From Gammaproteobacteria bacterium (lineage in GTDB: Bacteria > Pseudomonadota > Gammaproteobacteria > CBDBNL01 > JAAOII01): 64,000 bases of DNA. This document shows positions 42,787 through 63,018 of the stretch, piece by piece. Each line of letters starts with the position of its first letter. Position 1 is the stretch's first letter. The translations under genes and the position numbers were made by a program. Location: assembly GCA_965209035.1 (NCBI GenBank), contig CBDBPY010000001.1:1-64000 (forward strand), given 5' to 3'. The notes under the pieces were generated by a model that did no database searches, was not told the DNA's origin, and was given only the letters and a program-made list of their open reading frames with translations.

Positions 42787-43671
42787 TCAACCCCCTTTGT
42801 CATCTCCGTCATCCACAGAAGCCGACACAATCCTTTGCAAATTCGGCGACGCGCGACGCAAACAACAATCACCTCCAAGCGCACATCCACCCTCACCCTT
42901 CGCCGCCGACATACCCGCCAAATATGCCTCCCTCGCGTCCCCCGGTATAACCACCGGGGCGTTGTTTATGTAAATCATCACCGTCCCCAAATTAGCCGCC
43001 TTACTCAACGCTATAAACGCCCTCGTCTCGTCCGCTATCGAAGCGTCATCAACCTCACCCATCGCAATATCACCCTGACGCATAATCGATAACCTCAACA
43101 ACGACTCCGCCATCGTCCCAAAATCTTGCCGCCACTTCGCAAACTCAGGCAAACACAATATATGATGAATATGATTCTTGATTGTCCCCACCGCCAAATC
43201 CTTGTTCTCCGGCACCGCCTCGTAATACGCCTCAATCGGAGTCAACTCCGGATTCTCCGACATCACCCGACACATCGCATACGCCCTGTTGCTCCACATC
43301 GACTCACTGCACAAACGACGCTTCAAAAATTTCTGACCCTTCGAATTGTCCCTCTTGCTTAAACAATCAGTGCAAAGCGTCGCCGTCCCAAATTTCTGTG
43401 AAGGCGTTCTGCACTTGCTCTTAACCCCGCATTTTTCGCAAACGAAAAAACGAATCCCTTTACTCTGATTCCTGAAAGCCTTCGTCCCTTCATTCTCAAC
43501 CACCCCGCACTTCTTTTTCGCCAACTCATTCGCTCTCCTCATCACCTCCTTCTCGTCATTCGGATTTTTTTTGATCCCTGCGTCTATTTCTTTCAACTGC
43601 TCGCCACCCGGATTACCGGCCGGCTTCTTCGCCGCCCCTCTTCCTGTTGGCTTGGCGGGGGGTTTTGGCAT
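42787..43671 (-). CDS. Terminase small subunit-like protein with zinc ribbon
   Basis: TPIEAYYEA...TIKNHIHHILCLPEF resembles the TerS HTH; CEKC...CTDC. Confidence 0.4.
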   Translation of the reverse strand: MPKPPAKPTGRGAAKKPAGNPGGEQLKEIDAGIKKNPNDEKEVMRRANELAKKKCGVVENEGTKAFRNQSKGIRFFVCEKCGVKSKCRTPSQKFGTATLCTDCLSKRDNSKGQKFLKRRLCSESMWSNRAYAMCRVMSENPELTPIEAYYEAVPENKDLAVGTIKNHIHHILCLPEFAKWRQDFGTMAESLLRLSIMRQGDIAMGEVDDASIADETRAFIALSKAANLGTVMIYINNAPVVIPGDAREAYLAGMSAAKGEGGCALGGDCCLRRASPNLQRIVSASVDDGDDKGG

Positions 43672-49600: not shown

Positions 49601-52600
49601 CTTTTGCCGTCGACGATTTCTCAACCGACACCAACGGCCGCGAAACCAAAATACCATTCCCCGACCACGATAAACCATCGAAAAATCTCGCAAACACCTT
49701 ATTCACCGACGGATCTATCTCACCACCATCTCCCAGCCCAACCGAATCCTCTATCCCCCTATCCGCCAGCATCGCCGACACATAACCCGCAAAATAATCC
49801 CCCATCGCCTCCACCAACGGCTTATCCAACGCCTTCACACTCGCAACCACCTTTTCCACCTCACCCAATCCTATATCCCTGCCCCCATTCAACATCAACG
49901 ACGACAACCAACTACGCGACAAACCATATCCCGACGATAAATCTCCCACATCTCCAAAAGCCCCGCCCAATTTCAATCCCGACTTCGGCGCGCCCACCGC
50001 CGCCGCCAAATCGTGCAAGCCCACATACAATTTCCTGATCTCTTCCTTTCTTTCTCCAACCTTCATCAAACCCTTGCCCACGAAAAATTTCCTCCAATCG
50101 CTAAATCCAATCCATTCATCAATCAACTTCGCCGCGTCAGCGCCGTCAGGTATTTCCGTAGCCGATACATCCGGCGCGCCGACAAGCGACGGGCCCTCTA
50201 TTTCACCCAAATCCCCCTCATCAACGCCTTCGATTCTTTTTGCGTCCTCATCCGTCTTATCCTCCCCCACAACCCCCAAATCCAACCCCTCGCCGCGCGA
50301 ATCGCTCTTATCCTCATCTACCCCCTCATCCTCCACCAATTCGGCTAAAACGCCCTCTTTTGCAGGAGATTCCTCAACAATCGGTTTTGTCTCCTCCTTC
50401 ACCATAACCTCTCCTCTACTCTCAACCTCGCTCGCCGCCGACACCATCTCTTCATTCCCCGCCCGATAACCCAATTTCTTCATCACCACATCTCCCTTTC
50501 CCCCTCCTTTCTCAAAAACCAACACCCGAAAATCAAACTTTGCCCCCATCGACCAGTAATGCGAGCCGTCAAATAGCAGATTCGCCCGCAAGTCATCTCC
50601 CCACTTCTCAAATAATTCTCTGCCCGAATCCTTATCAGAACGCAAGGAATGACCCACTATCGCCACCATACGACCTCCATCACGCAACGACTCCAATCCC
50701 CTATCCAACATTCCAGCCGCTATCCCTGCATCGGGCGCGCGACGACTTGGCAAATCCGCCGAACGCGAAAACGGCGGATTCATAAAAACCACATCAAACC
50801 CCTCTCCACCCATCACTTTCTTAAATTCTCCCTTCGCCGATAACTGATCCTCCGGGCTTATTTCAATCTCCGATCCCGCCGGCAACACCGCACGCAAAAA
50901 TCCCGCCCTTTGCTCGTCGTATTCGTTTGCGTAAATCTTGCTCCCCGATAAAAATACCGCCAATCCCCCTGTCCCCGCCGTCGGCTCAAATGACTTTTCT
51001 CCCTTCCTCGCATTCGCCAATAAACCGCCCAAAAAAGCAATTCGCGGCGGCGTAGAATACGCCTGCATCGACTTCTTGTCCGCCGTCGTCTCCGTTTGCC
51101 GCGGCAACAAATCCTCCAAAATCCCCACCGCACCCATCTGATTCCTCGCCGCCGACCAATCCACTTCGCCCGCCGCGTCCCTCGGTATTGCCGTCAAACC
51201 CATATCCAGCAAATATCTATTCACCCCCGCCTCCAACGACTCCCACAAATCACGCGAATTTAAACCGACCGCACCCGCCGAATTCATACGATTATCCAAG
51301 TCCACCCTGTTCGATATCGGATTCTGATCCCTCATCGCTCCCGACACAACCTGATATGCCGCAGTCATCGACTCAATCATCGACTCCGGCGCATCTCTCA
51401 TCTCCTCCAACCCTTTCTCCTCCTCATAAATCCCCGAATTCAACGCCGCCCTCGCCCTCGCCGCAAATCCCGACATCGCCCCCTCCCATACATCAACCGA
51501 CGACATCTCAATCAACAAATCCGACATCTCGTCAACCGATAACGACCACGCCAAAAACGCAGGCCCGCCGCCCCTCTTACCGCGCGGCTCGAATATCCTC
51601 TTACCCCTCCATTTCGGAATCGAGTATTCCCCCGATCTCCACTGCTCCCTATTCATCGCCCAAAAATCACGCACAACGCCGCGCAACCCACCGCCGCGCC
51701 CGAACACCCACTCCGACACGCTCGCCGAATCTCGCAATTCCAACATAGCCGAATTGTCATCAACCGCAGGCGTTTCGCCGGCCACCTCCACATCTCCCTC
51801 GTCCGGCGCCACCGGCAAATCTTTCGCAAGTGTTTCATCCACTTCGACCTCCGACTCCTCCGACCGCGACGATTCGTTATCCGACAAAACCTTTTCCTCC
51901 TGATTCTTTACCCCGCCCGTCCAAACTTCAATCGGATTAAACTCTCCCTCCTCATAACCAACCACCCCATCTTCACCAGATCCAATATGAAACGATCGCT
52001 TTCTTTCCTCTTTTTCTTCCTCCCGACTAGTATACGATACCTCACCCGAATAATACTTCGGCTTAACCACCACCAACATATCTTCCGCGATAAACGATAT
52101 CGCCTCCAACCCATTCAAAAACACATCGACCTCCGACTTTCCACGCGCTTTCGCCAACTCTCCAATCGCCCGCAAATATCTCGCGTCGACATAAACATCA
52201 GCCCTTTCGTATTCTATCCGCGCCGTTCCCCACTCCATTTTTGGCTTCGAATCTTTATTCTCTCGACGATCCTCTTTCTTAATGCCAATAAGATACCTCG
52301 TATCCTGCACGAAACGCGCCGTCGCCTTTTTCGGAATAACCCGCTCGATTTCTTCCTGATTGTAAAAAGCCACATCGAAATCAACTTCCCCGTTTTTCCG
52401 AAACATAAAACCATCATCCGGCGCGCCGTCCAATGTAGGAATACCAGACACCAACGCCATCGCCTGTTCGTCCGTTGCAACCGCCCGCCCAGCCACGAAA
52501 TATATGCCGCCAAGACTCATTTTTTTCAAATCGCCCTTATTATCAGCCGAAAACAAAAACATCGCCCGCCGCGTCTTTTCGTTCGCCTTGTCCGCCTCCA

Positions 52601-55600
52601 CCGCCGCCGATAGACGCGCACCCTTGTCCGCGTTATCAATCTCCTCTTGCTCTCGCTCGCTCCACATATTCCGTCCGTCGCTCTCCACATTGTCGTCGCC
52701 GCCCTCGGTTTTCTCCTCATTCTCCTCGATCGACTCGATCGACTCGATCGGCTCGCCTGATATCATCTTTTTCCAATCCTCAACCGGCCGAAAATCACCC
52801 CAATTTATCTCAACGAGCAACTTGATAGCCCCCGACTTATTTATATTGTCATCGCTTTGCACCATATCTCCCAACGCCTTGTTGCCCGAAAAAATAAACA
52901 CGCGGTGGTATTCTTCTCTCGCCCGCTCGATTTTTCCCTGCTCGTAAAAACCTATCTTGCTGATATATCCCCACCCCTCATCTCCCACCAAATCATACAC
53001 CATCCGCAAACTACGCGAATCCAACGCAAAAAACTCTTTGCCATCTTCTCCCACAAACGAATAAACATCATTGCCAACCTCTATTTTTCCGTTCAAACCA
53101 ACCTTTACTTTTCCTTCCAACGAAGGCAATCTAAACCTAAACACCGCGCTTTTAACGAAATCCGAATACGAATCAACGCCCTTTTCTCCCGCCTCAAATT
53201 CACCAAGCGTTGCGTCGCCGCGAACACCAACCGAAACTTTCGGATTACTCCTGCTCCCCGACAACTTTATCGTCAAACCGCCTTGCCGCTCGCCATCGAA
53301 GTAATCGTTATCCATATCCATTTTCGGCAACCCGCCAACAGCCGCGTTTGATCCCCCATATCTCGCCCAAGCCAAACCGCCCAACTCATCGAAAAAATCA
53401 TCGGTGTGGCTTATCTCCCAATCACGCGAAAAAGGAGTCAATCGCTTTCGCGCTGACGCAACTTCGGGTTTTAATATGAAGGCGATCGCCTGTTTTCTTT
53501 TAATGCCTGCCTTCGTTTTAGGCGGCTCTTCCTCATCTTTCGCCTTCTCCTCCGCCGACTCCTCTTTCACCGTCTCCTCCGCCGGCGCAACCGGCGGCGC
53601 AACCGATTCCGACACGATTACCCGCTTCTTCCCTCGCTTCTCCACTTTGAGACCAATCGCCTCCGCAACCGCTCCATCAGTTTGCTCGAACGCCACTCCC
53701 CGATTTTTCAAGTAAGACCAAAATTCCTTTTCTTCTCTCCCCTCAAAATTCGGAAGCACAGCCGCCGCATATTTAACCGCCGCCGCATTCGCCTCCTCAA
53801 TCGACCCCGAAAAATTCGCAATCGCCATCGCGCGATTTATCACATCTTCGCCTGCGCCATCATAACCCTGCGCCGACAGCAAATCCAACCACTCCGACCT
53901 CTCCGGCTTTCTTCCCTCCGAATCCAACACCGCGCCGATCGCCTCGTCCCGGCCATCCTCGACATATTCCGTTGCGGCGAGATCGTCGCTCGCCCCGTCC
54001 CCCAATTTATCGATTCTTTGATATTCCGCCAAAAATTCCTTAGCCTCATTCGAATCTGTGGTATTATCGGGCTGGATTTTCGCTTCGCGCCCACCTCCTT
54101 CTCCATCTCCTCGCGAAGTGGAAATCCCTTTTTTCCCCTTAACAATCCTCCCCGACGCTCTCGCGCCGCGCGCCTTGTCCGTCGCCTCCAAAATCGAATC
54201 CAACGCCTTCGCGCCAGTATCTCCCACGCTTTCCGCAAACTGCCGCAATGCCTCCTCGCCGCCCCTTCTCGCTTTGACGAACGCCCGACCCGCCGCCGCC
54301 AATCCCTCGTCGCCCCCAAATTCTTCCCGCGCCGCGTCCGTTGCCGAACCCAATTTTTCATCCACTCGGCGATACTTTTTCGCTCTCCAAACCGCGTGTC
54401 GAGGATGAACGCGGAAACTCGGCGGAACATAGCGACCATCACTAGCCGCCGCCAACTCCGCCCAATCACTCTCGATTTCAATCATCATCGATTCCAACCG
54501 CTCCAATCTCCCCGCCTTTTTCTCCCCTCCGCCTTTTTTCTCCGCCGCGCGAGCCGTTGCCCTATTTTTCACGCCTGCAACCGCCGATTCACCCGATCTC
54601 AATTCGCCCGATAATTTTTCATATCCCTCGATATTCGAGCGCAATCTCTCATCAATCGATTCCATTCCCGACGGCGGGCGACGCGAATCCAACAACCCCG
54701 ACACCAATCCCCGCGCACTGGCCGGAATCGCCGCCAAACCCTTTTTTACATAATCCGGCGCAACTTTCACAATCGCCGCCTCGACATCTTTCACACCACC
54801 AGACCAATTTTCCCCAAGTTGCGATTGCAGACCAGCCACAAAATTTCCGCCGCCGTCCTCACTTTTTCGATCCATCGCCGCAACCGCCGCCGCAAGCGAT
54901 TCCCGCGCCACGTCCGCCGTCGCACCCGGAACATAACCCATCGCCTCCTTGTCCGTCATCGAACTCGGCTTCGCGCCCGACAAAAGCGCGCCGCGTATCG
55001 CCGTCGCCAACTCCGCCGCCGCCCGCTCGTCCGCCCCGCTCGCAATCGCCTCGGCCGACAATTCACCAGCAATATCGCCGGCCCTCGAAACGCGCAACGC
55101 CGCATCCGTCGTTCCCCTTTTCGCCGCCCTCTCCGCTCTCTTATCCCCCAACCGCTTCGCCGCCTTCGCGCCCAAGCCAACGCCCGCCGACACAACCTCC
55201 GCGCTCGCGCCACCGCCCAAACCCCCTGCAAAACCCGCCGTCGCAGAAATCGCAATCTCCTCCGCCGTCGGAAAATCACCAGCCGCAACCGCCCCCGCAA
55301 ACAATTCCGCCGTCTCCTCCGCCGCTTCCTGCCCGGGCTCGAACAAAATCCCCGTCGCTCCACGTGAAACAGCAGGGTAAATTCTACCGCCAAGACCACC
55401 TAAAACCGCCCCCGCTCCGCCGCCAAGAGCCCAAGCAAGAGGCAGGCGCCTGCTTATCTCCGCTTCTCCAACTCCCGCAGTCCTCAATCTTTCCCTCGCT
55501 TCGTCGGCACTAAACGCACCAGACAAAGCACCACCAAAAGTTGCCGCTCCTCCCGCCGGAGACGACAACGCCGTTCCCGCTTTTTGTAGCGCCGTTCCCT

Positions 55601-56210
55601 TTTTCGCCAACGATAAAGCCGCTCCTGCACCGCGAATCGCACCAATTCCAGCGATAGAAAACGGCAAACTTCCAACGCCTTGACCGAGCGCATACTTAAA
55701 ATGATTCGGATTGATCCCACCATCCTCAAAAAACGGCCTCGCCTTCTGCCCCGCCGTATGTGCGTCTTCCTCGACAACATCAACTCCGTCCCCAAATGCC
55801 GCATCGTAAAAATCTTTCGGCAAAGCCAAACCTCTCTTGACTCCCTCACCAAAACTTTCTTTTCCCGATTCCAATAATTCAATGTCTCCCCATCCGCCGT
55901 TTCCATTAGACGGACTCACACCAACAACATCAAATCCGTCGTCCCTGTCCACGATCCCCCAAACCACATTTACCCCTTTCGCATCCGCGAAATCAACTAT
56001 TGCTTGGCCAGTATTCGCGTTTATCGGGATTATAGGTATATTTTTTGCGTCATCGGCGATATCAAGCCGGAATCCGTCGAGCCCGCTCCGCAACTTTGGC
56101 TTTGCTCGCCTTCGACCGCCTGCGGAATATCGATTCCGGATATCACTGGCGATTTGAGGAGCGCTTTGAGACAAGTCAATCGGGGTAATCGGTTCGGGCA
56201 TAAAATTCAT
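43671..56210 (-). CDS. Giant polyvalent DarB-like virion protein (N6-MTase, Strawberry-notch SF2 helicase, metallopeptidase, ADP-ribosyltransferase-like)
   Basis: EPTAGTG/FMNPPF; GWGVGLGKTR, LDESH, YLSGT, SRAGATGLNL, QGLGRSNR; LAHEIGH; NHRT..F..FD...FYFSS...KNPL...GHDAVIF. True start possibly ATG 56201. Confidence 0.88.
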   Translation of the reverse strand: MNFMPEPITPIDLSQSAPQIASDIRNRYSAGGRRRAKPKLRSGLDGFRLDIADDAKNIPIIPINANTGQAIVDFADAKGVNVVWGIVDRDDGFDVVGVSPSNGNGGWGDIELLESGKESFGEGVKRGLALPKDFYDAAFGDGVDVVEEDAHTAGQKARPFFEDGGINPNHFKYALGQGVGSLPFSIAGIGAIRGAGAALSLAKKGTALQKAGTALSSPAGGAATFGGALSGAFSADEARERLRTAGVGEAEISRRLPLAWALGGGAGAVLGGLGGRIYPAVSRGATGILFEPGQEAAEETAELFAGAVAAGDFPTAEEIAISATAGFAGGLGGGASAEVVSAGVGLGAKAAKRLGDKRAERAAKRGTTDAALRVSRAGDIAGELSAEAIASGADERAAAELATAIRGALLSGAKPSSMTDKEAMGYVPGATADVARESLAAAVAAMDRKSEDGGGNFVAGLQSQLGENWSGGVKDVEAAIVKVAPDYVKKGLAAIPASARGLVSGLLDSRRPPSGMESIDERLRSNIEGYEKLSGELRSGESAVAGVKNRATARAAEKKGGGEKKAGRLERLESMMIEIESDWAELAAASDGRYVPPSFRVHPRHAVWRAKKYRRVDEKLGSATDAAREEFGGDEGLAAAGRAFVKARRGGEEALRQFAESVGDTGAKALDSILEATDKARGARASGRIVKGKKGISTSRGDGEGGGREAKIQPDNTTDSNEAKEFLAEYQRIDKLGDGASDDLAATEYVEDGRDEAIGAVLDSEGRKPERSEWLDLLSAQGYDGAGEDVINRAMAIANFSGSIEEANAAAVKYAAAVLPNFEGREEKEFWSYLKNRGVAFEQTDGAVAEAIGLKVEKRGKKRVIVSESVAPPVAPAEETVKEESAEEKAKDEEEPPKTKAGIKRKQAIAFILKPEVASARKRLTPFSRDWEISHTDDFFDELGGLAWARYGGSNAAVGGLPKMDMDNDYFDGERQGGLTIKLSGSRSNPKVSVGVRGDATLGEFEAGEKGVDSYSDFVKSAVFRFRLPSLEGKVKVGLNGKIEVGNDVYSFVGEDGKEFFALDSRSLRMVYDLVGDEGWGYISKIGFYEQGKIERAREEYHRVFIFSGNKALGDMVQSDDNINKSGAIKLLVEINWGDFRPVEDWKKMISGEPIESIESIEENEEKTEGGDDNVESDGRNMWSEREQEEIDNADKGARLSAAVEADKANEKTRRAMFLFSADNKGDLKKMSLGGIYFVAGRAVATDEQAMALVSGIPTLDGAPDDGFMFRKNGEVDFDVAFYNQEEIERVIPKKATARFVQDTRYLIGIKKEDRRENKDSKPKMEWGTARIEYERADVYVDARYLRAIGELAKARGKSEVDVFLNGLEAISFIAEDMLVVVKPKYYSGEVSYTSREEEKEERKRSFHIGSGEDGVVGYEEGEFNPIEVWTGGVKNQEEKVLSDNESSRSEESEVEVDETLAKDLPVAPDEGDVEVAGETPAVDDNSAMLELRDSASVSEWVFGRGGGLRGVVRDFWAMNREQWRSGEYSIPKWRGKRIFEPRGKRGGGPAFLAWSLSVDEMSDLLIEMSSVDVWEGAMSGFAARARAALNSGIYEEEKGLEEMRDAPESMIESMTAAYQVVSGAMRDQNPISNRVDLDNRMNSAGAVGLNSRDLWESLEAGVNRYLLDMGLTAIPRDAAGEVDWSAARNQMGAVGILEDLLPRQTETTADKKSMQAYSTPPRIAFLGGLLANARKGEKSFEPTAGTGGLAVFLSGSKIYANEYDEQRAGFLRAVLPAGSEIEISPEDQLSAKGEFKKVMGGEGFDVVFMNPPFSRSADLPSRRAPDAGIAAGMLDRGLESLRDGGRMVAIVGHSLRSDKDSGRELFEKWGDDLRANLLFDGSHYWSMGAKFDFRVLVFEKGGGKGDVVMKKLGYRAGNEEMVSAASEVESRGEVMVKEETKPIVEESPAKEGVLAELVEDEGVDEDKSDSRGEGLDLGVVGEDKTDEDAKRIEGVDEGDLGEIEGPSLVGAPDVSATEIPDGADAAKLIDEWIGFSDWRKFFVGKGLMKVGERKEEIRKLYVGLHDLAAAVGAPKSGLKLGGAFGDVGDLSSGYGLSRSWLSSLMLNGGRDIGLGEVEKVVASVKALDKPLVEAMGDYFAGYVSAMLADRGIEDSVGLGDGGEIDPSVNKVFARFFDGLSWSGNGILVSRPLVSVEKSSTAKVAKARRVQRDLSGEGSFVSFDPTSIVSLDQISGATEKPKNADIVETMNMAGVMPPLVAESSRIGGDLSQVYDYQAAIGLQALDAFDRLVKLRNEFKGEEGMPDGDSVEVRGGYLAGWGVGLGKTRLAGLVAREVMRVSKQKRAVMFAPREVIDQAADDLSAVGAISGESYIRVGDKKADADLGVVENGFYALTYEAFSVGARGSAFKTSARYEQLNRMMGNDYDGVIVLDESHLVSNLGEEKEEGRKLKGSARAKLMERFLMRHPRARVLYLSGTAIKNVNSLGHLSRLGLFGVGDEYPFETADEIMREVSSDEGSRQGIGEGIALGAKERGVFSSLQQSEFGIENEAYPIELDDRMQLKSERAGELMLDIFWAVEEASESQLWAAGIEKEKMRKADANRGVRRSAIFGLFTRIQKALEIESKLPHIAPKSGGLVREMLKKGMRVILQGDSTGEADLKKSMLRALSEGDDISEVFDHNPTIAFENVVRAIFPIEKKHAVAGKDGSVSLETKFYTVSEKGRGYRQVEAEKVLTDSGKVRLFFPAIKDNKGEIKERKRSAGTLDFDPLVHFINAKTFLVSLVDPKLYEEREEALSLIKRIGIPLPPLDIIRGNLGDMVGEVTGRSAMLRFDANGKLLGGVAKRSGKANKEDMSLWRRGWGKNAKGEDSINTKKVLIISRAGATGLNLGDDPRETIFGEGLPGEAADSPVRSRKVAHIPIDFGWQVVAATQGLGRSNRVRQSTKPHRVIPYVSNDPTEARFMGAMLSKLREMGGVTRASGKGYTEGMDFLSGFDMFDKYGNEAVKNVLMSNRGIFYYLGYDFGVDKETYPAFDKVMNRVKFLPISKSSPMVRGWEKELSLMDEEKELKKKSDRAESKKNRNEKDETAIYDYRRLVWLKERLEMTRDRGSDELNRLATAFNRTDFVGTVLRERERLIEMDKRIGRYSEGIVKESADMIEAGESVSVDDFEFREVVMKSRRATISMEDIMSRISGDSIGGNKSEESYFFAVNRLGNPVAVVVWERDVTGYYRRPQMAGVDNTVVDAVRIVSPDGRESFREYSEGEIERLKKGKDGGKNLPMRAGEYKSGDKIFKEAWSERMESKSFAVSRKLVIPFGGDTLRQWKRLKKKTPGVSGSDSSLRLRQFTTRGGETFVGVWLRGKMESAAREMMSGKDTGLSMSAEELMKGVDNGETAIFETMRISSVGSGASRYYKIDPGATAVESDLSFLGDGWELMRNGRKVWGRSKSRGSVMRILEMKSGLVRLLGSGGVERFSIPRGVIGDKPFWEVTDEGAKKLGELEDGVINIRKIWIENGWRSQVRGIFPRDYFHNLADTKLLEYDGAGGYPEIVPDEDQINKITAKLRDKFQELLEYASEWRSMLEDEYDRLLEEEDYSKSEIRELKSDAKKTEKYAVKMIKEEMAKIRYANRWFRKKWPSDERYSIPSRDNYTARERRRFTDAAPVFFATADGDGSVVVGERVEARLPAKVILAEYPNVVRSMSDSGKAEVYAAHGGVERWKDAVEAIDPKKKRESLRIAGRLNEFFEGSGMRDSFGLDLRIQSDGGRGGGSFDPAARVIKIALDLESSEGEEEAMSTLAHEIGHVFYEHLSGRDRERVEEMMPEWKKRYGADIKRSVEETKSRNPGVSDWSWLEEEEAFGYAIQDWHRKGGDGIISRIMRFLRRLSGWLRREGLSSADEAADLFSRVLRGDVKIEDLSGGRARKIREMGGVSGGLVFSIPPPKKAIDENGKYNPNLDPRLKYAPLSNEIWNHRTNEEFPDFDIRKTKTASHFYFSSTPGGETMYGKRLIRARIAAKNPLVIGDLFEGVRDDGTFGPIDPPPWLKEWALSEYGDEVSDYESDYDREERENSGIDDDSAIDDDDGNSDDERERTDEQKKRAALQLFWEDTGTLYQSGGRGRQDSLINEALGNGHDAVIFPDIGKSDEESGIESAHTSLALEDPLLIINADTGEQMSAAGNQVGEE

Positions 56211-56282: not shown

Positions 56283-56579
56283 TTAGAAGCGGTGATACCC
56301 GGCCGCGGCGGCGCGGTGTCGGGCTTCCCATCGATCGGGATGGGAGCGCATAGCACGGGCGCCAACTTCCACGCAAGTATCGCCGGAGTGAGAGCCGGTC
56401 TCGATTTTCGCCGGAAAACCGCACTTGATGCAAGCGAGCAATTCGCTCGAAAAAGTATTTGTCCCATTTTCAGCGCCGCCGTGGGATAGGGTGCAAAGAT
56501 CGCCCCCGCACTTCGGGCATTCGCCCGAATACACCATCTTGCGTTGCTGGTCCCAGTTTTGGGCTTTTTGATTTTTCAT
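56283..56579 (-). CDS. Zinc-ribbon protein (ACUGGAA-leader gene G)
   Basis: CPKC...CIKC. Confidence 0.65.
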   Translation of the reverse strand: MKNQKAQNWDQQRKMVYSGECPKCGGDLCTLSHGGAENGTNTFSSELLACIKCGFPAKIETGSHSGDTCVEVGARAMRSHPDRWEARHRAAAAGYHRF

Positions 56580-56700
56580 TTTTGTTTTCCAGTTTTGGAT
56601 TTGTCCTCCCAACTTCCAGTCGTCGGGATTCGACAACTCTATTATATCATACAACGCCAAAAATAAAAAACCCCCCGCCTACGAAGCCGCAAGCGGGGGG
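56577..56700 (-). promoter_or_regulatory. Terminator, extended -10 promoter and ACUGGAA hairpin leader (copy G)
   Basis: CCCCCCGC..GCGGGGGG-TTTTTT; TGATATAAT; hairpin 56602-56635. Confidence 0.7.
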
Positions 56701-57138: not shown

Positions 57139-57250
57139 TGGTGTTTCCAGTGTTTGATGTCCCGCCAGATTCCAGTTCCAGCAGTCGACAACTCCATTAT
57201 ATCACAAAGAGACAAAAATAAAAAACGCGGCGACACACTTACCGCCGCGT
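57136..57250 (-). promoter_or_regulatory. Terminator, extended -10 promoter and ACUGGAA hairpin leader (copy I)
   Basis: ACGCGGCG..CGCCGCGT-TTTTT; GTGATATAAT; hairpin 57158-57190. Confidence 0.7.
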
Positions 57251-57268
57251 CCCCCGTTGGTGATTTTA

Positions 57269-57949
57269 TCAGGGCAGAGATATTGTCTCGTCCCCACTCT
57301 CAATCGCGGAGCGGCTTATAATTTTGCCGTCTTTTACCACGATTATGATATCTTGCACCCCATCCGAATTATATCGATTAGGCAAATGCTCATAAGCGGC
57401 GGTAGCGAATCCGCCAAGTTCGTCATCGTCCAACTCTTTCGATATCGATTCCCCCCACACATTCCCCAATTCCCCCACCTTTTCCAGTTTGTCGATCTTG
57501 GAAAAGAGCGCCGATAATTTTTCGATTCTGCCGCTTTCGTGATCTCCGGCATCGGCCTTATCGGTTTCGAAAAAGCAATCATCTCCGCCATTCTCGATTT
57601 TCTCGTCGACGACCTGCTCGTAGCATTCGCCGCCGGCGATTGCGTTTTTAGCAATTTCGGATATCTCGCTCCAAACATCGGCGCGCGCTTGTATCCAAAA
57701 ACGGATAACTTGGATTCTCGTCGGCATCTGCCCCAAAAGAACGCCGCGATTTACGAAAACGCCATCAATGTGGGAGGGATAAACGGAGAATATCATCGGC
57801 GCGATAGCCAACAGCGCGGCGGATTCGGAGTCGGCGACGATGAAGCCGAGCGCGGCCGTGGCGACCGCCAATAACGCGGCGACGGCAACGGCGATAAATC
57901 CGCTTTCCGAATCATCGTTGCCGTCGCCGCGAGGATGATCAGCGATCAT
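57269..57949 (-). CDS. Membrane-anchored hypothetical protein
   Basis: ATGA coupling; N-terminal GFIAVAVAALL...AALLAIAP module. Confidence 0.65.
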   Translation of the reverse strand: MIADHPRGDGNDDSESGFIAVAVAALLAVATAALGFIVADSESAALLAIAPMIFSVYPSHIDGVFVNRGVLLGQMPTRIQVIRFWIQARADVWSEISEIAKNAIAGGECYEQVVDEKIENGGDDCFFETDKADAGDHESGRIEKLSALFSKIDKLEKVGELGNVWGESISKELDDDELGGFATAAYEHLPNRYNSDGVQDIIIVVKDGKIISRSAIESGDETISLP

Positions 57950-59325
57950 CGATTCCCGCACTCTTGGAGTGTTTTGATATTTTTGGAGTGTCCGCGCTTT
58001 AACGCTTCGGTTTCCGTAATACCAAGCAAACCCGCAACCCTTGAAGCGTTTTTGTGCTCCAATTTGACATGTCTAAAGTTCCATCTCGCAAGGACGGGAG
58101 ACAAGTGGCCGTATTTCGAGATCTTATATGTGCGAATCTCTATATCATCGTAGTCGCGGCGAATCAACATATTAAATAAATTGTGGAAGCGGTCTCCACG
58201 CTTTATCGCCGAAATCTCCCAAGCCGCTGATTCGCGGTTATTCCTGCCGCCATAGCAACAGCCGCAATCATAGACAAGTTCGACTTCAAATCCGGCTTCT
58301 TTCGCCGCGTTGGTGATGAAGTCAATGACTTCGTCGGGTTTGGTGGCGGCGGCAAGCGGCGCAACCGCCAGCAACGCGGCAACGCTGTCAATCCCAAATC
58401 CCGCGACGATGAAGCCGATTACGCCCGCCGCGACCGACAGCAATGCGGCGACGGCGATGCCGATGAAGCCGTGTGGGGCGCGGCTGGCGCGGAAAAGTTG
58501 GGCCGCTGGCGAAACCCATGCGTAATCTTCGGAAACGCCCCACCAGCCGCCATAATCATCTCGCGATTCTTTCCTCTCCACATAAAAGGAAATCATCTCG
58601 TCGCGGGCATTGTCAGGGCTACCCCAACAAGCAATTTTCGCGCCGATTTTTCGCGCCGCCACATCATTCCAAGCGCGGAACAAAATGCCGTGATTCGCTT
58701 TCCCAACCGAAACTCGATAGAGCGAATACTTTGCCGCGATAGACGGTTGCGACGGGCAATACCCTTTGTTGACATGCCAACCCTCTATCGGGCGATACAT
58801 CGGAAGCGGTGCCCGCTTGCCTGCTTTTGCCAGTGCAGCAGGCGCGACTGCCGCCAGCGCGAACGACGCCAGATCGATCGCCAAATCGATGACGAACGCG
58901 CCCGCCACCAGCACACAACCGATCGCCGCGCACATCAGCGCGAGCGCAACAAAATCGACATTCCCGCGTTGCGCGGCGCGCTCGACGGTCTCCGCTTTGG
59001 GCGGGGTTTCCGACGACCGCGAGGGCGCGTCGTAGTCGCCGGCATCTCCAAGTTTTTGTTCCTGATTGAACAGATACGCAGAGTCGACAATCTTCGGCAA
59101 ATCGCCGTGAAGCGTCACCAATTGTTTCTCCAAAGACGAATAACGGCGATCGCCGGCTCTAATGCCGCGCATACGATAGAACACAGCGCAGTCACGGACA
59201 GCGTGAAGAATAATGGCAATGCGCCGCTTGTGCGCAACAATCTGGCGATTGTTGATCTTGCCGATATTGGCAAGGGGATATTCGCGGGCGGTGCGGCCTT
59301 GCCGCGTGTTGCTTTGATTTTCCAT
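57946..59325 (-). CDS. Modular hypothetical protein with two internal hydrophobic modules (leader gene H)
   Basis: MENQS... start; soluble domains separated by two related hydrophobic hairpins. Confidence 0.7.
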   Translation of the reverse strand: MENQSNTRQGRTAREYPLANIGKINNRQIVAHKRRIAIILHAVRDCAVFYRMRGIRAGDRRYSSLEKQLVTLHGDLPKIVDSAYLFNQEQKLGDAGDYDAPSRSSETPPKAETVERAAQRGNVDFVALALMCAAIGCVLVAGAFVIDLAIDLASFALAAVAPAALAKAGKRAPLPMYRPIEGWHVNKGYCPSQPSIAAKYSLYRVSVGKANHGILFRAWNDVAARKIGAKIACWGSPDNARDEMISFYVERKESRDDYGGWWGVSEDYAWVSPAAQLFRASRAPHGFIGIAVAALLSVAAGVIGFIVAGFGIDSVAALLAVAPLAAATKPDEVIDFITNAAKEAGFEVELVYDCGCCYGGRNNRESAAWEISAIKRGDRFHNLFNMLIRRDYDDIEIRTYKISKYGHLSPVLARWNFRHVKLEHKNASRVAGLLGITETEALKRGHSKNIKTLQECGNR

Positions 59326-59461
59326 TTTTGCTTTCCAGTTGTTTTGGATTTGTCCTCCCGATTTTCCAGTTTCGGGATTCGACATTTTCATTATACTCGC
59401 ACCAAAACAAAAAGTCAAATCGAAAAAAACCGCCGAATCCTATAGCAAAAATCGGCGGGTT
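59323..59461 (-). promoter_or_regulatory. Terminator, promoter and ACUGGAA hairpin leader (copy H)
   Basis: CCGCCGA..TCGGCGG-TTTTTTT; TTGACT-17-TATAAT; hairpin 59351-59384. Confidence 0.72.
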
Positions 59462-59568
59462 GAAAAGAATGCCGGAATCTCACCGGCTACGAATTTTCGG
59501 GCTGGAAATCCCACGGCCTCGTTGCCGCTCGGAGCGCGCGCTCCAGTGCTTACTACTCCTTTTTCGTC

Positions 59569-59604
59569 GTTTCAATCCACCCCCGCCCTGCGGCGAGGAA
59601 AAAC
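59569..59604 (-). CRISPR. Solitary CRISPR repeat-like unit, type I-C-like
   Basis: GTTTTTCCTCGCCGCAGGGCGGGGGTGGATTGAAAC: 8-bp hairpin followed by the 11-nt TGGATTGAAAC handle typical of I-C repeats; intergenic. Confidence 0.7.
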
Positions 59605-59713
59605 GCGCCAAAACATTAATCACGCCGCCGAAAAAACATAATCGATAAAATCGAATGCGAGATCGAAAGCGAAAGCGAAAGCCGCCAGAGTCAAGCGCGG
59701 CTTGTTTCGCTTG

Positions 59714-59926
59714 TCATTTTTCGGTATCCGATTCGGTATCCGATTCGGGTTTTTTAGGGGCGATGAAAATAAGGGTATAAACAACCCCCGCTCCCACCAG
59801 CGCAACGCTACCTGATACAACCAGAGCAAACGCAAAAAGGTCGGCGGATAGCCGCCTTAAACCATCCAAAGCAACAGACCCCGCGATTACCGCAAAGAAT
59901 CCGATTCCTGATCTTGATATTTTCAT
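59714..59926 (-). CDS. Small membrane protein
   Basis: Two hydrophobic segments; ATGA coupling. Confidence 0.55.
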   Translation of the reverse strand: MKISRSGIGFFAVIAGSVALDGLRRLSADLFAFALVVSGSVALVGAGVVYTLIFIAPKKPESDTESDTEK

Positions 59927-60096
59927 CGCGCACCCCCGACAAAATCAGGGCATAGCGACGGCGGCGGGCTTGCAACGCGGCAGAATTTGTCGACGGCGAG
60001 CGAGTCAAGCCACGATACAAGAGCGAATGCGAAAAATATCGCAAGCACGGCGCAACAAAGCGCGACCGCGATCGATTCTTTTTTCGTCCGCTTCAT
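59923..60096 (-). CDS. Small single-TM protein
   Basis: MKRTKKESIAVALCCAVLAIFFAFALV; ATGA coupling. Confidence 0.55.
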   Translation of the reverse strand: MKRTKKESIAVALCCAVLAIFFAFALVSWLDSLAVDKFCRVASPPPSLCPDFVGGAR

Positions 60097-60281
60097 CTCG
60101 GCAACCCCTCGCCAGCAAAAACGCGGCAAATGCTTCCACGATGATCGACAAACCAAGATTTGGGAGCAGGGCGCGGCGGGTTTCGCGCGTCATCGATCAA
60201 CGCCTTAAACGATGTCATCGCTTCGCCGATTGTCTCGTCGGCATCTACCGATTCGGGTTTTGTGTTGGGGTTTTTTTCCAT
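60093..60281 (-). CDS. Small hypothetical protein (repeated-leader gene D)
   Basis: MEKNPN... behind the conserved leader. Confidence 0.6.
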   Translation of the reverse strand: MEKNPNTKPESVDADETIGEAMTSFKALIDDARNPPRPAPKSWFVDHRGSICRVFAGEGLPR

Positions 60282-60365
60282 TTTGATTTTCCTCATTTTT
60301 GGATTTTTCGACGATCGGAATATCGCCGTTATTGAGATTTTACACCCAAAAAAAAGACAAGTCAA
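60279..60365 (-). promoter_or_regulatory. Promoter, hairpin and conserved RBS leader (copy D)
   Basis: TTGACT-17-TAAAAT, hairpin CGGCGAT/ATCGTCG, AAATCCAAAAATGAGGAAAATCAAAATGG. Confidence 0.78.
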
Positions 60366-60403
60366 GCCCCCTCTTACACCATTCCTCGTGATATAATAAA
60401 TGC

Positions 60404-60528
60404 ATTGTCGTAAGGCCGATAAAGCGGTGAATTTCCATTTCATCTCCTCTCGGTGGATTAATTGATTCGGGGCGGTTTTCTTGCGATAACCCGATTAAAA
60501 AGAGACGGCTTCGGCCGTCTCTTTTTTT
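60404..60528 (+). ncRNA. Candidate ~125-nt small RNA with anti-SD loop
   Basis: Plus-strand GTGATATAAT at 60388-60397; terminator GAGACGGC-TTCG-GCCGTCTC-T7 at 60502-60528; folds with closing stem TTGTCGTAAGG/TCTTGCGATAA. Confidence 0.65.
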
Positions 60529-60542
60529 GATCCGCGCGGCGG

Positions 60543-60821
60543 TCATCGTTTCGGCGCGCGCGGTCGTTTTTTGGCGGCTCGCTCGCGCGGCATAAACACT
60601 ATGCGCCATTCGTCGCCGACACGCTCGCATTCGACGAAAATATCCACCTTAAACCCCAACTTTTTCGCCGCCGCTTTAAGTAATCCATCGCAACCTTTCA
60701 GCATACTGACAAAATCGCTCGCTATTATGCCGCCGTCGGCGCGCCCGCTTTTGAAAACAAGCACCATTTTTTCGCCTTCCTGTAAGCAGGCGGCGGCTTC
60801 GCGGGGGGTCGGTAAACTCAT
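60543..60821 (-). CDS. Hypothetical protein
   Basis: ATGA-coupled ORF. Confidence 0.55.
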   Translation of the reverse strand: MSLPTPREAAACLQEGEKMVLVFKSGRADGGIIASDFVSMLKGCDGLLKAAAKKLGFKVDIFVECERVGDEWRIVFMPRERAAKKRPRAPKR

Positions 60822-61036
60822 CGATCACCCTTGCGGATTTTGTCGGAATTGATGAGGACTTTTAACGGCAGAATCGCGGCATCGATCCGCTGAACGGCGA
60901 TAGCGTCGCCTTTTTTGTCGGCGCTCCTGCGCTCGAATTTCATCGCGTCCAGCGCCGCGACCAACTTATTGGCGGTTATTTGGTCGAGAGTGTGAATCCT
61001 TTTTATTTCAAAAATGGTCGGGGTTGTGGCTTTCAT
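60818..61036 (-). CDS. Hypothetical protein
   Basis: TGATG-coupled ORF. Confidence 0.55.
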   Translation of the reverse strand: MKATTPTIFEIKRIHTLDQITANKLVAALDAMKFERRSADKKGDAIAVQRIDAAILPLKVLINSDKIRKGDR

Positions 61037-61242
61037 CAGCCAAACGCCCATACCGCGAGTGCGGCAACGGCAATTCCCAATGCAAGAAGAGACGAGTTAA
61101 ATATAACTCCTACTATCCCGCAAAGTTTTTCCAGATCCGGAATGATTTTTTCATTCCGATATCTCAAAAGATGACAAGCAACGATGAGAGAAGTAATCAT
61201 CGAGCCGATTAAAAGCCCGATGAAGAAAATCAAACCGCTCAC
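61036..61242 (-). CDS. Small two-TM membrane protein
   Basis: Two hydrophobic helices; GTGA coupling. Confidence 0.55.
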   Translation of the reverse strand: MSGLIFFIGLLIGSMITSLIVACHLLRYRNEKIIPDLEKLCGIVGVIFNSSLLALGIAVAALAVWAFG

Positions 61243-61676
61243 TCTTGCCCCTCGATTTGCGCCGACGATCCCACGACAGAGTTATACGCCGCGTCGTGCC
61301 GATCGCCCGCCGTCGCCTTGCGGATAACTTCCTTTGGAAAAATTTCGATGAAAAAACTTCCGCCGATAACACCCCGACAAAATATATCCGGAGACAACTC
61401 TCCATTATCTCTAATTGCGCTGACGGTCATCAGCGGGCCGCCCGACTTCAGGCAGACAACATCGCCCGCCTTAAATTTGTCGGCTTGTGATAACACAAAA
61501 CGATCGCCCACTTTGAGCGGACACTTGCACCAAATATATCCAACGCCGCCGCCAAGATTTTTCGCATTTGGCGCGGGATAAACGGCAGAGTCGTATTCGG
61601 CGACGAGTTCTTGAATGTAGAGGATTTTTCCTTCTACATCGTGATAGGCCAAATAGCCGTTAGGGTTGCTTTCCAT
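61239..61676 (-). CDS. YodC/DUF2158-domain protein (repeated-leader gene E)
   Basis: FKAGDVVCLKSGGPLMTV. Confidence 0.7.
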   Translation of the reverse strand: MESNPNGYLAYHDVEGKILYIQELVAEYDSAVYPAPNAKNLGGGVGYIWCKCPLKVGDRFVLSQADKFKAGDVVCLKSGGPLMTVSAIRDNGELSPDIFCRGVIGGSFFIEIFPKEVIRKATAGDRHDAAYNSVVGSSAQIEGQE

Positions 61677-61760
61677 TTTGATTTTTCCTCGTTTTGGATT
61701 TTTGGAGATCCAGCGCCTCCATTTATTTTCGATTATACGCTCTTTTCGTCCGTTTTTCGA
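61674..61760 (-). promoter_or_regulatory. Promoter, hairpin and conserved RBS leader (copy E)
   Basis: TCGAAA-17-TATAAT, hairpin TGGAGG/TCTCCA, AAATCCAAAACGAGGAAAAATCAAAATGG. Confidence 0.72.
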
Positions 61761-62116: not shown

Positions 62117-62264
62117 AGCCAATCCCCTGCTTCATCGCGGCGGCGATTTCTGATCGATTCCTCCAATCCCAAATCCAGCGCGTCGCCTTGCGGATAGCGT
62201 TCTGGAATAAAGAGCTTGCGCGGCTTGCAGTCCCTTTTTTGTAGCCAATGGCGGTGCGCTCTAT

Positions 62265-62312
62265 CCGCTTCGCTTTCCGCTTCGCTTTCCGCTTCGCTTT
62301 CCGCTTCGCTTT
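62265..62312. repeat. Tandem repeat (CCGCTTCGCTTT)x4
   Basis: Four exact 12-bp copies abutting the mini-array. Confidence 0.95.
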
Positions 62313-62422: not shown

Positions 62423-62527
62423 TTATCGCCCGAAAACCTTTTTGATTTTGTCGATTGCGTTCGCCCACAAAATGACAATCGCCAACAAGAGCGTGCCGAA
62501 AACCCCTTTGACGGATTGCAGGTTCAC
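62423..62527 (-). CDS. 34-aa single-TM peptide
   Basis: GTGA-coupled to the Tad1-like gene; VFGTLLLAIVILWANA. Confidence 0.45.
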   Translation of the reverse strand: MNLQSVKGVFGTLLLAIVILWANAIDKIKKVFGR

Positions 62528-63018
62528 CGCTCCAACTTGCCTTCCACGCCGCGCTTTACGCGGTCGCGGCGGCGGCTCGCAAGGGCTTCGATTGCTTCCT
62601 TTGCCTTTTCGATCGCAAGCGCGTTTTCGTCGCAAGCGAATTTTCCGTCTTGGAAAATTTTAACCGGCGCAATAGCGGCGGCGATAAGGGCTTCGGGCGT
62701 TATGCCGTTGAGTTGCGGGTCTTTGTCGGGCGTGATATTGCCTTGCCGCGCGACAACTCGATCGAGCAGGTCGATGGTGAATTTTTGGATTTTGACAATA
62801 TCGTCGCGCGACGAATTTGAGGGGTTATTCGCAATGAAGGCAAGGGCATCAGCATCCGAAAGATACGCCTTGTCTGGCGGCAAAATGAAAAAATCGATTT
62901 TGTCGCCGCCGGGTTCTCCTTCGGCAACAGCCGAATAAAATCCGATAATCCGCGCGTTGGCGGGGGAGACGGCGCGATGGTCGCTGATTATGGAGAGGTG
63001 GAGAGGGAGGTTTGCCAT
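62524..63018 (-). CDS. Tad1/Acb2-family anti-defence sponge-like protein
   Basis: GEPGG...NGITPEALI...FQDGKFACDENALA....EA...L..RR.DR..RGVEG matches the Tad1 helical hairpin (FQAGPF..RENA.AL..EEA..W..RR..DR..R.V.G). Confidence 0.75.
   Translation of the reverse strand: MANLPLHLSIISDHRAVSPANARIIGFYSAVAEGEPGGDKIDFFILPPDKAYLSDADALAFIANNPSNSSRDDIVKIQKFTIDLLDRVVARQGNITPDKDPQLNGITPEALIAAAIAPVKIFQDGKFACDENALAIEKAKEAIEALASRRRDRVKRGVEGKLER

What the first reader, a model, noticed from the sequence alone, without database searches (positions are those of the whole stretch)
60360..60528. Sole plus-strand transcript: an sRNA antisense to the repeated RBS, at a divergent-promoter switch
Seen: back-to-back with promoter D, an extended -10 and a UUCG terminator define ~125 nt that fold with TCATCTCCTCTC (anti-SD) in a loop. 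TTTCCATTT (60432-60440) pairs with AAATGGAAA and TCCTC with GAGGA of the leader shared by six genes. Established analogy: P1 c4 and P4 CI are RNA immunity factors. Inference: an RNA master repressor in place of cI, which would explain the conserved ATG GAA starts. Alternative: cis-antisense to a 32-aa ORF at 60340-60438 (type I toxin-antitoxin-like).
Basis: partly seen in the sequence, partly recalled or inferred. Interest (0 to 1): 0.8.

Follow-up and report, generated by a model that had tools for sequence, protein, structure and literature searches.

The report
Predicted antisense small RNA in phage
A gap between two early operons of an unusual one-strand phage carries a good promoter and terminator for a roughly 120-base RNA on the opposite strand, but its match to six gene leaders comes from an extra leader copy lying underneath it, and nothing shows the RNA is made.

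Summary
The sequence features are real. A perfect extended -10 (TGATATAAT, 60389-60397, +) lies about 100 nt before a 13-bp UUCG hairpin with seven T (60497-60528). It sits back-to-back with a minus-strand TTGACT-17-TAAAAT promoter. This 9-mer occurs 4 times in the window against 0.15 expected. The other three are intergenic minus-strand sites. The terminator is the only symmetric one, with more T on the plus side. A plus-strand RNA of about 120-125 nt is therefore a fair prediction.

The "anti-leader" complementarity has a plain cause. The RNA would be antisense to a degenerate extra copy of the phage's repeated leader, which fronts a 32-codon ORF. The six leaders do not stand out as targets. 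They fall in the top 8-23% of all 40-nt windows and rank 1, 29, 66, 67, 117 and 172 of 211 start sites; the two best hits use other RNA segments. Without its terminator the RNA folds no better than shuffles.

No RNA data and no relatives were found, so neither expression nor conservation could be tested. My best reading is a local antisense RNA of the sar/OOP kind. The master-repressor reading is unlikely.

The parts
60389..60397 (+). Extended -10 promoter TGATATAAT, with no recognisable -35. The predicted start is near 60404.
   Evidence: It is the only plus-strand TGNTATAAT in the window. The same 9-mer stands at three intergenic minus-strand sites (57204, 56649, 20685). The motif is about 3-fold enriched in non-ORF space of the host chromosome.
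60404..60528 (+). Predicted non-coding RNA of about 120-125 nt. It has not been shown to be transcribed.
   Evidence: The interval is set by the promoter and terminator. The fold is -44.5 kcal/mol with z = -3.6, but that signal is all terminator. The body alone gives z = -0.34. There is no Rfam family and no ORF.
60497..60528 (.). Bidirectional intrinsic terminator. It is a perfect 13-bp stem with a UUCG loop and seven U on the plus strand, and a CGAA loop and five U on the minus strand.
   Evidence: The core hairpin is -11.6 kcal/mol on the plus strand and -10.7 on the minus strand. Three other minus-strand terminators (56700, 57255, 56261) have no upstream A-run.
60432..60459 (-). Degenerate extra copy of the phage's repeated leader (AATCCA, then GAGAGGAG, then AAATGGAAA), with no promoter in the usual place.
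   Evidence: Alignment A1 and the AAATGGAAA list.
60340..60438 (-). A 32-codon ORF behind that leader copy. AGGAG lies 5 nt before its ATG, and its 3' end overlaps promoter D. Coding status is unknown.
   Evidence: the highest 19-residue hydropathy is 0.13, so no membrane helix; no Pfam family.
60337..60365 (-). Promoter D, TTGACT-17-TAAAAT, which drives the 62-aa gene.
   Evidence: It is 79% identical over 91 nt to the cassette at 31387-31477 (family D6).
60093..60330 (-). Shared leader and the 62-aa gene (ATG at 60281) downstream of promoter D.
   Evidence: No Pfam or PHROG family was found.
60543..60821 (-). The 92-aa gene, last of the upstream operon. It ends 15 nt before the terminator.
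   Evidence: It has no homologue other than itself in the 5.8-billion-protein search.

Best explanation
The 130-nt non-coding gap (60366-60497) lies between the terminator of one early operon and the promoter of the next. It holds a small convergent transcription unit on the otherwise silent plus strand. An extended -10 promoter would start an RNA near 60404, and the RNA would end in the U-run of a shared bidirectional terminator, giving about 120-125 nt.

The RNA would be the exact antisense of a promoter-less, degenerate copy of the phage's repeated leader cassette and of the ribosome site of a 32-codon ORF. If made, it most likely acts locally. It would pair with minus-strand RNA that reads through the weaker (five-U) side of the terminator. 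Its promoter would also compete with the adjacent back-to-back promoter D. The effect would be to insulate or tune the junction between two early operons, in the manner of P22 sar or lambda OOP.

Its short match to six other leaders is a by-product of the cassette's paralogy.

Shown: the sequence elements, their statistics, and the paralogy. Inferred: transcription, the RNA ends, and every functional step.
For: Promoter:
- TGATATAAT occurs 4 times against 0.15 expected.
- The other three copies are intergenic on the coding strand. Two stand directly after terminators and one stands 16 nt before an ATG.
- In the host chromosome 62 of 101 TGNTATAAT sites lie in the 14.9% not covered by long ORFs, against about 20 expected from composition.

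Placement:
- It is the single plus-strand site in 64 kb.
- It lies in a rare non-coding gap, about 100 nt before one of only 6 plus-strand terminator-like sites in the 65.7-kb contig. By my arithmetic, about 1.3% of random positions lie 60-200 nt upstream of one of them.

Terminator:
- It is the only symmetric one, with A7 upstream and T5 downstream on the minus strand, hence T7 on the plus strand.
- It is equally stable in both senses.

Other points:
- The other terminator-promoter modules have about 15 nt between the two elements. Here the distance is 130 nt.
- The leader paralogy is seen in alignment A1.
- No Hfq gene was found in the host, whose genome is 92.7% complete. This favours fully complementary cis pairing over short-seed trans pairing.
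Against: - There is no expression evidence. No RNA run was listed, and the three DNA runs come from one sample.
- There is no comparative evidence. No related locus was found anywhere, so neither conservation nor covariation could be tested.
- The RNA body is no more structured than shuffles.
- The promoter has no -35.
- The terminator is needed by the minus-strand operon in any case, so only the promoter motif and the terminator's symmetry are independent evidence.
- The cis target, read-through RNA or ORF32 mRNA, is itself hypothetical.
Confidence: 0.45

Rival explanations
1. There is no plus-strand RNA. The gap is a decayed copy of the promoter-leader-start cassette. The terminator serves only the minus-strand operon, and the plus-strand TGATATAAT is a chance or relic AT-rich motif.
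For: - The gap carries a degenerate leader copy and a short ORF with no family.
- Without the terminator there is no structure signal.
- The terminator is explained by the 92-aa gene that ends 15 nt before it.
- About 0.6 TGNTATAAT sites are expected by chance in the window.
- The promoter has no -35.
Against: - The exact 9-mer is 27-fold over-represented, and its other three copies sit in promoter positions.
- The spacing to a terminator with the better U-run on the plus side is what a small RNA gene looks like.
- The other terminators of the region are asymmetric.
Confidence: 0.33
2. The RNA acts in trans on the six or seven shared leaders. It covers the Shine-Dalgarno sequence and AUG and shuts down a leader regulon, as an RNA immunity factor or master repressor.
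For: - UUUCCAUUU is a perfect 9-nt complement of AAAUGGAAA. That motif occurs 9 times on the sense strand and 0 times on the other. Seven of the nine sit at leader starts and one at ORF32.
- CUCCUC and GGAUU can pair with GAGGA and AAUCC of the same leaders.
- In the minimum-energy fold UUUCCAU is a hairpin loop.
- Seven of the eight leaders fall in the top 29 of 99 crude start windows by naive duplex energy.
Against: - The match follows from paralogy.
- The blocks are separated by unequal loops.
- The six leaders fall in the top 8-23% of 16,375 sense-strand windows. The two variant leaders fall at 40% and 87%.
- No leader is in the top 40 windows.
- With accessibility included, the leaders rank 1, 29, 66, 67, 117 and 172 of 211 sites. 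The rank-1 and rank-29 hits use other RNA segments away from the ribosome site.
- The seed is mostly paired in the ensemble, with an unpaired probability of 0.012.
- No Hfq gene was found.
- No lysogeny genes were found on the contig.
Confidence: 0.08
3. A type I toxin-antitoxin-like pair. The 32-aa ORF is a toxic peptide, and the plus-strand RNA masks its ribosome site.
For: The antisense RNA covers the SD and start of a small ORF that has a strong AGGAG at a 5-nt spacing. This geometry resembles 5'-overlapping type I pairs (recalled from memory).
Against: - The peptide has no membrane helix. Its highest 19-residue hydropathy is 0.13, against 2.3-2.5 for two small neighbouring membrane proteins.
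- There is no promoter between the terminator and the ORF.
- No Pfam family matches.
Confidence: 0.05
4. The RNA is made but targets host mRNAs. Alternatively it acts as a general CU-rich anti-SD sponge, not specifically on the phage leaders.
For: - The CU-rich stretch (RNA nt 37-49) gives the best predicted duplexes with many purine-rich sites.
- The host 16S tail carries CCTCC, so SD pairing is in use.
Against: - No specific host match was found. The best BLAST hit of the gap on the chromosome is 19 nt at E = 0.21.
- No systematic search for host targets was done.
Confidence: 0.07

Closest known systems
P22 sar RNA and lambda OOP RNA (phage cis-antisense RNAs)
   Same: Each is a short untranslated RNA with its own promoter on the strand opposite the phage genes, an intrinsic terminator, and full complementarity to an inter- or intra-cistronic stretch of an early or regulatory operon. 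For sar that stretch includes a ribosome site. The roles of sar and OOP are as described in passages of the review PMC12197685. Their sizes and exact geometry are recalled from memory.
   Different: There is no sequence or Rfam relation. The presumed cis target here is only terminator read-through RNA and a 32-codon ORF of unknown reality. No ant/arc or cII-type gene was identified. Transcription has not been shown.
P1/P7 c4 RNA and P4 CI RNA (RNA immunity factors)
   Same: The idea is the same: one small phage RNA pairing with repeated complementary sites in front of controlled genes. The c4 role is taken from passages of PMC12197685. P4 CI is recalled from memory.
   Different: Those RNAs are processed out of the very operon they control, in temperate or plasmid prophages (recalled). 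Here the RNA would be a separate convergent transcript. Its repeated targets do not score above background. No lysogeny or plasmid-maintenance gene was found.
T4 RegA-type translational repression of many early mRNAs (recalled from memory)
   Same: It offers another way to explain a start-region motif shared by several early genes: one factor that recognises the sequence around the AUG.
   Different: RegA is a protein. No such protein was identified here. The shared leader may simply mark a duplicated promoter-leader cassette.
Bcep22/PEp14-like podophages with a giant DarB-like virion protein
   Same: The genome is about 62-66 kb. One protein takes about a fifth of the genome (12.5 of 65.7 kb here) and carries a Strawberry-notch-type helicase. 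The portal's only INPHARED matches are Bcep22-like Burkholderia phages and Ochrobactrum phage POI1126, 12 records in all. Comparison data come from passages of the JC1 paper PMC9144972 and from the abstract of the Parlo paper PMC6606913 as shown in the search listing.
   Different: Portal identity is only about 22%. JC1 has an integrase and a repressor, and none was found here. Nothing is known about small RNAs in that group from what I read; 'sRNA' occurs 0 times in the JC1 text.

Membership tests
Extended -10 sigma-70-type promoter | A TG one base upstream of a TATAAT-like hexamer, which is sufficient without a -35 | tested here: met
   TGATATAAT at 60389-60397 on the plus strand. There is no -35 match at 17-bp spacing (read).
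Extended -10 sigma-70-type promoter | The motif is used as a promoter by this phage and host | tested here: inconclusive
   The evidence is indirect. The motif occurs 4 times against 0.15 expected. Three copies sit in promoter positions on the coding strand. Host intergenic sites number 62 against about 20 expected. No transcription start data exist.
Intrinsic (Rho-independent) bidirectional terminator | A GC-rich hairpin followed by a U-run on both strands | tested here: met
   A 13-bp perfect stem, with seven U on the plus strand and five U on the minus strand, and core energies of -11.6 and -10.7 kcal/mol.
Phage cis-antisense RNA (sar/OOP kind) | A discrete small transcript from the strand opposite the target | not testable with these tools
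   No RNA run was listed. The DNA contigs say nothing about RNA.
Phage cis-antisense RNA (sar/OOP kind) | Full complementarity to a ribosome site or coding part of a real phage mRNA | tested here: inconclusive
   The RNA is complementary by construction to the SD and ATG of ORF32 and to the 3' hairpin of the upstream operon. Whether minus-strand RNA covers 60404-60497 depends on terminator read-through, which was not tested.
Phage cis-antisense RNA (sar/OOP kind) | Sequence or structure homology to a described family | tested here: not met
   There were 0 Rfam matches at gathering score over the window. At E up to 10 there were 9 weak matches, all far below their gathering scores.
RNA immunity factor (P1 c4 / P4 CI kind) | Repeated target sites that pair specifically with the RNA | tested here: not met
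   The sites exist, but their predicted pairing is not above background.
RNA immunity factor (P1 c4 / P4 CI kind) | A temperate or plasmid-prophage context with an immunity operon | tested here: not met
   No tyrosine integrase, resolvase or HTH_3 was found on the phage contig. None appeared among the 41 proteins scanned in Pfam, PHROGs or both. Not every gene was scanned.
Type I toxin-antitoxin | A small hydrophobic, membrane-active toxin peptide | tested here: not met
   The highest 19-residue Kyte-Doolittle mean for ORF32 is 0.13.
Type I toxin-antitoxin | The toxin mRNA has its own promoter | tested here: not met
   No promoter-like site was found between 60497 and 60452 on the minus strand (and by reading).

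The most novel reading that the evidence does not exclude
The phage turned one copy of its own promoter-leader cassette into the template of an antisense RNA. That RNA's loop-displayed UUUCCAU and its CU-rich stretch would bind the AUG and SD of all cassette-driven genes. A single ~120-nt RNA would then switch off a regulon of seven or eight scattered genes, in a host without Hfq and in a phage with no recognisable protein repressor.
Probability: 0.08. Interest if true: 0.75.

Novelty: new member of a known kind. Interest (0 to 1): 0.3.

Why it matters
If the RNA is real, it would be the only transcript from the second strand of a 65.7-kb phage whose genes all run one way. It would also be a first regulatory handle on a lineage in which almost every early gene is an orphan. 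Antisense control at a terminator-promoter junction is a known theme (sar, OOP), so the gain would be a new example in a new phage group and not a new principle. The repeated promoter-leader-start cassette may be the more useful lead for understanding how this phage times and balances gene expression.

Tried and rejected
RNA evidence. The look-up of sequencing runs listed no RNA holder. It gave three DNA or unknown-type runs from one sample and one study. Laying them showed no variants, insertions or deletions in 59500-61700 and says nothing about transcription.

Comparative evidence. None of the following found a usable relative:
- blastn of 59500-61700 against INPHARED phages: no match.
- IMG/VR scans with the 92-aa, 62-aa, 164-aa and 145-aa neighbours, the portal, and P0003.
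- The 4 other genomes of the host's family.
- The 92-aa protein has only itself among 5.8 billion proteins.
- The 459-aa protein has 6 hits among 1.84 billion representatives. The best foreign hit, P0003, is 77% identical over only 76 residues.
- P0003 was not found in metagenome or genome contigs.
- A leader pattern gave 0 hits in viral, metagenome and genome contigs.

Covariation and conservation tests were therefore impossible, and no covariance model was built.

Known RNA families. Rfam and tRNA scans found nothing.

Paralogues and host matches of the gap. blastn-short and tblastx against the whole genome found only the gap itself.

Paralogy of the plus-strand promoter. I tested whether it is an inverted copy of the minus-strand promoter module. 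Alignment A2 shares only the -10 box and a TTGTCG, so the result is inconclusive.

Target ranking.
- My first duplex scan, with the whole 93-nt body, was dominated by long GC-rich spurious duplexes, and I set it aside.
- The gene starts used come from a crude caller of my own that often picks internal starts.
- The accessibility model uses 18-nt windows and cannot score three-block pairings.
- These rankings are therefore rough.

Paper supplements were not consulted. Structure prediction, complex prediction and the atlas search were not used, because the question concerns an RNA.

Full report
Context.
The window is bases 1-64000 of a 65,717-bp contig (54% G+C). That contig accompanies a single 2.18-Mb chromosome contig of 49% G+C. 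The contig is a phage. It encodes a large terminase, a portal, an internal virion protein, and RecT-like and Gam-like proteins, and a DNA methylase. It also encodes a 4,179-aa protein with a Strawberry-notch-type helicase. The portal's only matches among 50,697 phage records are 12 records of Bcep22-like Burkholderia phages and Ochrobactrum phage POI1126, at about 22% identity. Every plausible gene lies on the minus strand, and GC skew is strongly negative through 1-56 kb. An ORF runs across the contig ends, so the molecule is probably circular or circularly permuted.

The region from 56 to 64 kb is a string of short operons separated by terminator-promoter modules. Almost all of their proteins are orphans.

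What is at 60360-60528.
Read on the coding (minus) strand, the order is as follows.
- The 92-aa gene ends at 60543.
- A perfect 13-bp hairpin follows (arms at 60497-60509 and 60514-60526).
- Next comes a 130-nt stretch with no gene.
- Then comes a TTGACT-17-TAAAAT promoter at 60365..60337.
- It is followed by a roughly 50-nt leader and the ATG of a 62-aa gene at 60281.

- TGATATAAT lies at 60389-60397.
- TTTCCATTT lies at 60432-60440, followed by the CT-rich stretch.
- The hairpin has a TTCG loop and seven T on the plus strand.
- With a start about 7 nt after the -10 box (near 60404) and an end in the T-run, the RNA would be about 120-125 nt. It contains no ORF.

Is the promoter-terminator pair more than chance?
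TGATATAAT occurs 4 times in the window against 0.15 expected. TGNTATAAT occurs 4 times against 0.60 expected. In both cases 0 of 100 shuffles reached 4. The three minus-strand copies are all in promoter positions.
- Two lie directly behind terminators at 57255..57220 and 56700..56671.
- One lies in the 52-nt gap between the 546-aa gene and the next ATG.

In the host chromosome 62 of 101 TGNTATAAT sites fall in the 14.9% not covered by long ORFs, against about 20 expected from composition. This rests on my crude ORF mask. The motif is therefore very probably a working promoter type here.

The plus-strand copy is the only one on that strand. It lies about 100 nt upstream of one of only six plus-strand terminator-like sites that my scan found in the contig. 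By my arithmetic, about 1.3% of random positions lie 60-200 nt upstream of one of these six sites.

The terminator itself is unusual for this phage. Three other minus-strand terminators have no A-run in front. This one has A7 in front and T5 behind on the minus strand, hence T7 on the plus strand. The hairpin is equally stable in both senses, at -11.6 and -10.7 kcal/mol. In the other modules the terminator and the next promoter are about 15 nt apart; here they are 130 nt apart.

These points make a plus-strand transcription unit a fair prediction. They are not proof. The terminator is needed by the 92-aa gene's operon in any case, there is no -35, and no RNA data exist.

Structure.
The whole 125-nt RNA folds at -44.5 kcal/mol with z = -3.6. 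The reverse strand does as well, with z = -4.4. Without the terminator the body gives z = -0.34 on the plus strand and -0.49 on the minus strand. There is therefore no structure signal beyond the terminator.

In the minimum-energy fold UUUCCAU is a 7-nt hairpin loop, but the CUCCUC stretch is paired. In the ensemble both are mostly paired, with unpaired probabilities of 0.012 and 0.014. "Anti-SD in a loop" is not borne out.

Why the RNA matches the leaders.
The phage carries a repeated promoter-leader-start cassette.
- Its consensus runs AAATCCAAAAC, then GAGGAA, then about 5 nt, then AAAATGGAAAA.
- Copies lie in front of the starts at 61676, 60281, 35489, 31405, 16491 and 9484. Variants lie at 59325 and 56579.
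- AAATGGAAA occurs 9 times on the minus strand and never on the plus strand.

One of those nine is inside the gap. At 60459-60432 the minus strand reads AATCCA, then GAGAGGAG, then ATG, then AAATGGAAA. This aligns with the cassette (alignment A1) and heads the 32-codon ORF.

The plus-strand "anti-SD" and "anti-start" are simply the reverse complement of this extra, degenerate leader copy. Complementarity to the six leaders is therefore inherited. It comes in blocks of 9, 5 and 5 nt with unequal spacers, because the leaders have three more bases between SD and AUG.

Do the leaders stand out as targets?
They do not, by any of four rough measures.
- Naive duplex energy, 37-nt seed region against all 40-nt windows of the sense strand. 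No leader is in the top 40; the top is filled by purine-rich coding stretches.
- Leader windows placed to include all three blocks, against 16,375 windows. They score -10.8 to -22.0 kcal/mol against a background of -15.6 +/- 4.4. This puts the six leaders in the top 8-23% and the two variants at 40% and 87%.
- Naive energy against 99 crude start windows. The leaders rank 7, 9, 12, 15, 26, 28, 29 and 83.
- A rough accessibility-corrected score against 211 SD+start sites. The six leaders on the list rank 1, 29, 66, 67, 117 and 172. The rank-1 and rank-29 interactions use other parts of the RNA and do not touch the ribosome site.

The sense strand is purine-rich and the seed is pyrimidine-rich, so good-looking duplexes are everywhere. 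The caveat is that my gene starts and energy model are crude.

A 9-nt perfect seed over the AUG of seven genes is still within the range that real small RNAs use, so the trans reading is made unlikely and not excluded. No Hfq gene was found in the host, whose genome is 92.7% complete. The 16S tail carries CCTCC, so SD pairing is in use.

The 32-codon ORF.
It has AGGAG 5 nt before its ATG. It has no promoter between the terminator and itself, no Pfam family and no membrane helix. Its highest 19-residue hydropathy is 0.13, against 2.3-2.5 for two small neighbouring membrane proteins. It ends inside the -10 box of promoter D. It does not look like a type I toxin, and it may be a relic.

Lifestyle.
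No tyrosine integrase, resolvase or HTH_3 domain lies on the phage contig. None appeared among the 41 proteins scanned in Pfam, PHROGs or both. Not every gene was scanned. It fits a phage without lysogeny at least as well. The Bcep22-like phage JC1 has both an integrase and a repressor (passages of PMC9144972).

Most likely mechanism.
I commit to a small convergent antisense RNA that acts locally. It shares a bidirectional terminator with the upstream operon. It is fully complementary to any minus-strand RNA that escapes the five-U side of that terminator. Its promoter lies back-to-back with promoter D: the -35 position of one abuts the -35 of the other, so the two polymerase footprints should overlap. 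Pairing with read-through RNA, collision, and promoter competition would together uncouple or tune the two early operons.

This works like P22 sar and lambda OOP. Their roles are taken from passages of the review PMC12197685. The details of their geometry are recalled from memory. Only the sequence elements, their statistics and the paralogy are shown here. Transcription, the RNA ends and all effects are inferred.

My estimates are:
- about 0.45 for this reading;
- about 0.33 for no RNA at all;
- about 0.08 for the trans master repressor;
- about 0.05 for a toxin-antitoxin pair;
- about 0.07 for a host-directed or generic anti-SD RNA.

Novelty and verdict.
If real, this is a new member of a known kind, a phage antisense RNA at an operon junction, in a very isolated phage lineage. 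Nothing related could be found, so conservation is untestable for now. Interest is modest at 0.3.

Noticed in passing
window 9467-9514, 16473-16520, 31387-31477, 35482-35516, 56571-56605, 59309-59356, 60263-60353, 61659-61706 (minus strand): A promoter-leader-start cassette is repeated eight times across early and late regions. It has a -10 box, then AAATCCAAAAC, GAGGAA, and ATGGAAAA with an A-rich/CCCCAAC start of the coding sequence. Two copies are 79% identical over 91 nt. Its function is unknown; it could be a translation enhancer, a regulator site, or a mobile gene-entry module.
   Followed up: partly
window 43671-56210 (minus strand): A 4,179-aa protein takes 19% of the contig. It carries a Strawberry-notch-type helicase (AAA_34 plus Helicase_C_4, residues 2243-3010). 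It resembles the giant DarB-like virion proteins described for Bcep22-like and PEp14-like podophages. The portal is only about 22% identical to those phages.
   Followed up: partly
G000:C2 ends (window 3-3527 minus strand, and L006 2223-3716): An ORF open at the left end of the contig continues in an ORF open at the right end, and the contig ends share 7 bases. The contig is therefore probably a circular or circularly permuted genome, with a tail-fibre-sized protein of about 1,670 aa across the junction.
   Followed up: partly
window 57946-59325 and 57269-57949 (minus strand); repeat at 57834-57902 / 58403-58471: The 459-aa early protein and its neighbour share a repeated alanine-rich membrane-segment module. 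The few database relatives (P0003, P0004, P0006) match only through this module. P0004 matches in five stretches.
   Followed up: no
window 62261-62308 and 59724-59747: A 12-nt unit (CTTTCCGCTTCG-like) lies head-to-tail three to four times inside early ORFs. On the coding strand it encodes Ser/Glu/Ala-rich repeats.
   Followed up: no
window 62524-63018 and 24710-25168 (minus strand): Two genes have nearly the same ribosome site and first codons (CAGGAGTCAAAA, then ATGGCAAAC). The first matches phrog_2428, a family of unknown function. They are probably paralogues, one in the early and one in the structural region.
   Followed up: no
host chromosome G000:C1: No Hfq gene was found, and no HTH_3 domain scored above the Pfam cut-off, in a 2.18-Mb single-contig chromosome scored 92.7% complete. 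Only five genomes are held for the host's family.
   Followed up: no
window 60579-61239: In run X3 one low-depth contig (depth 3, 30 letters on the shorter side) joins 60579 to 61239 and skips 659 nt. This would remove the three small genes upstream of the terminator. It may be a rare deletion variant or an assembly artefact.
   Followed up: no
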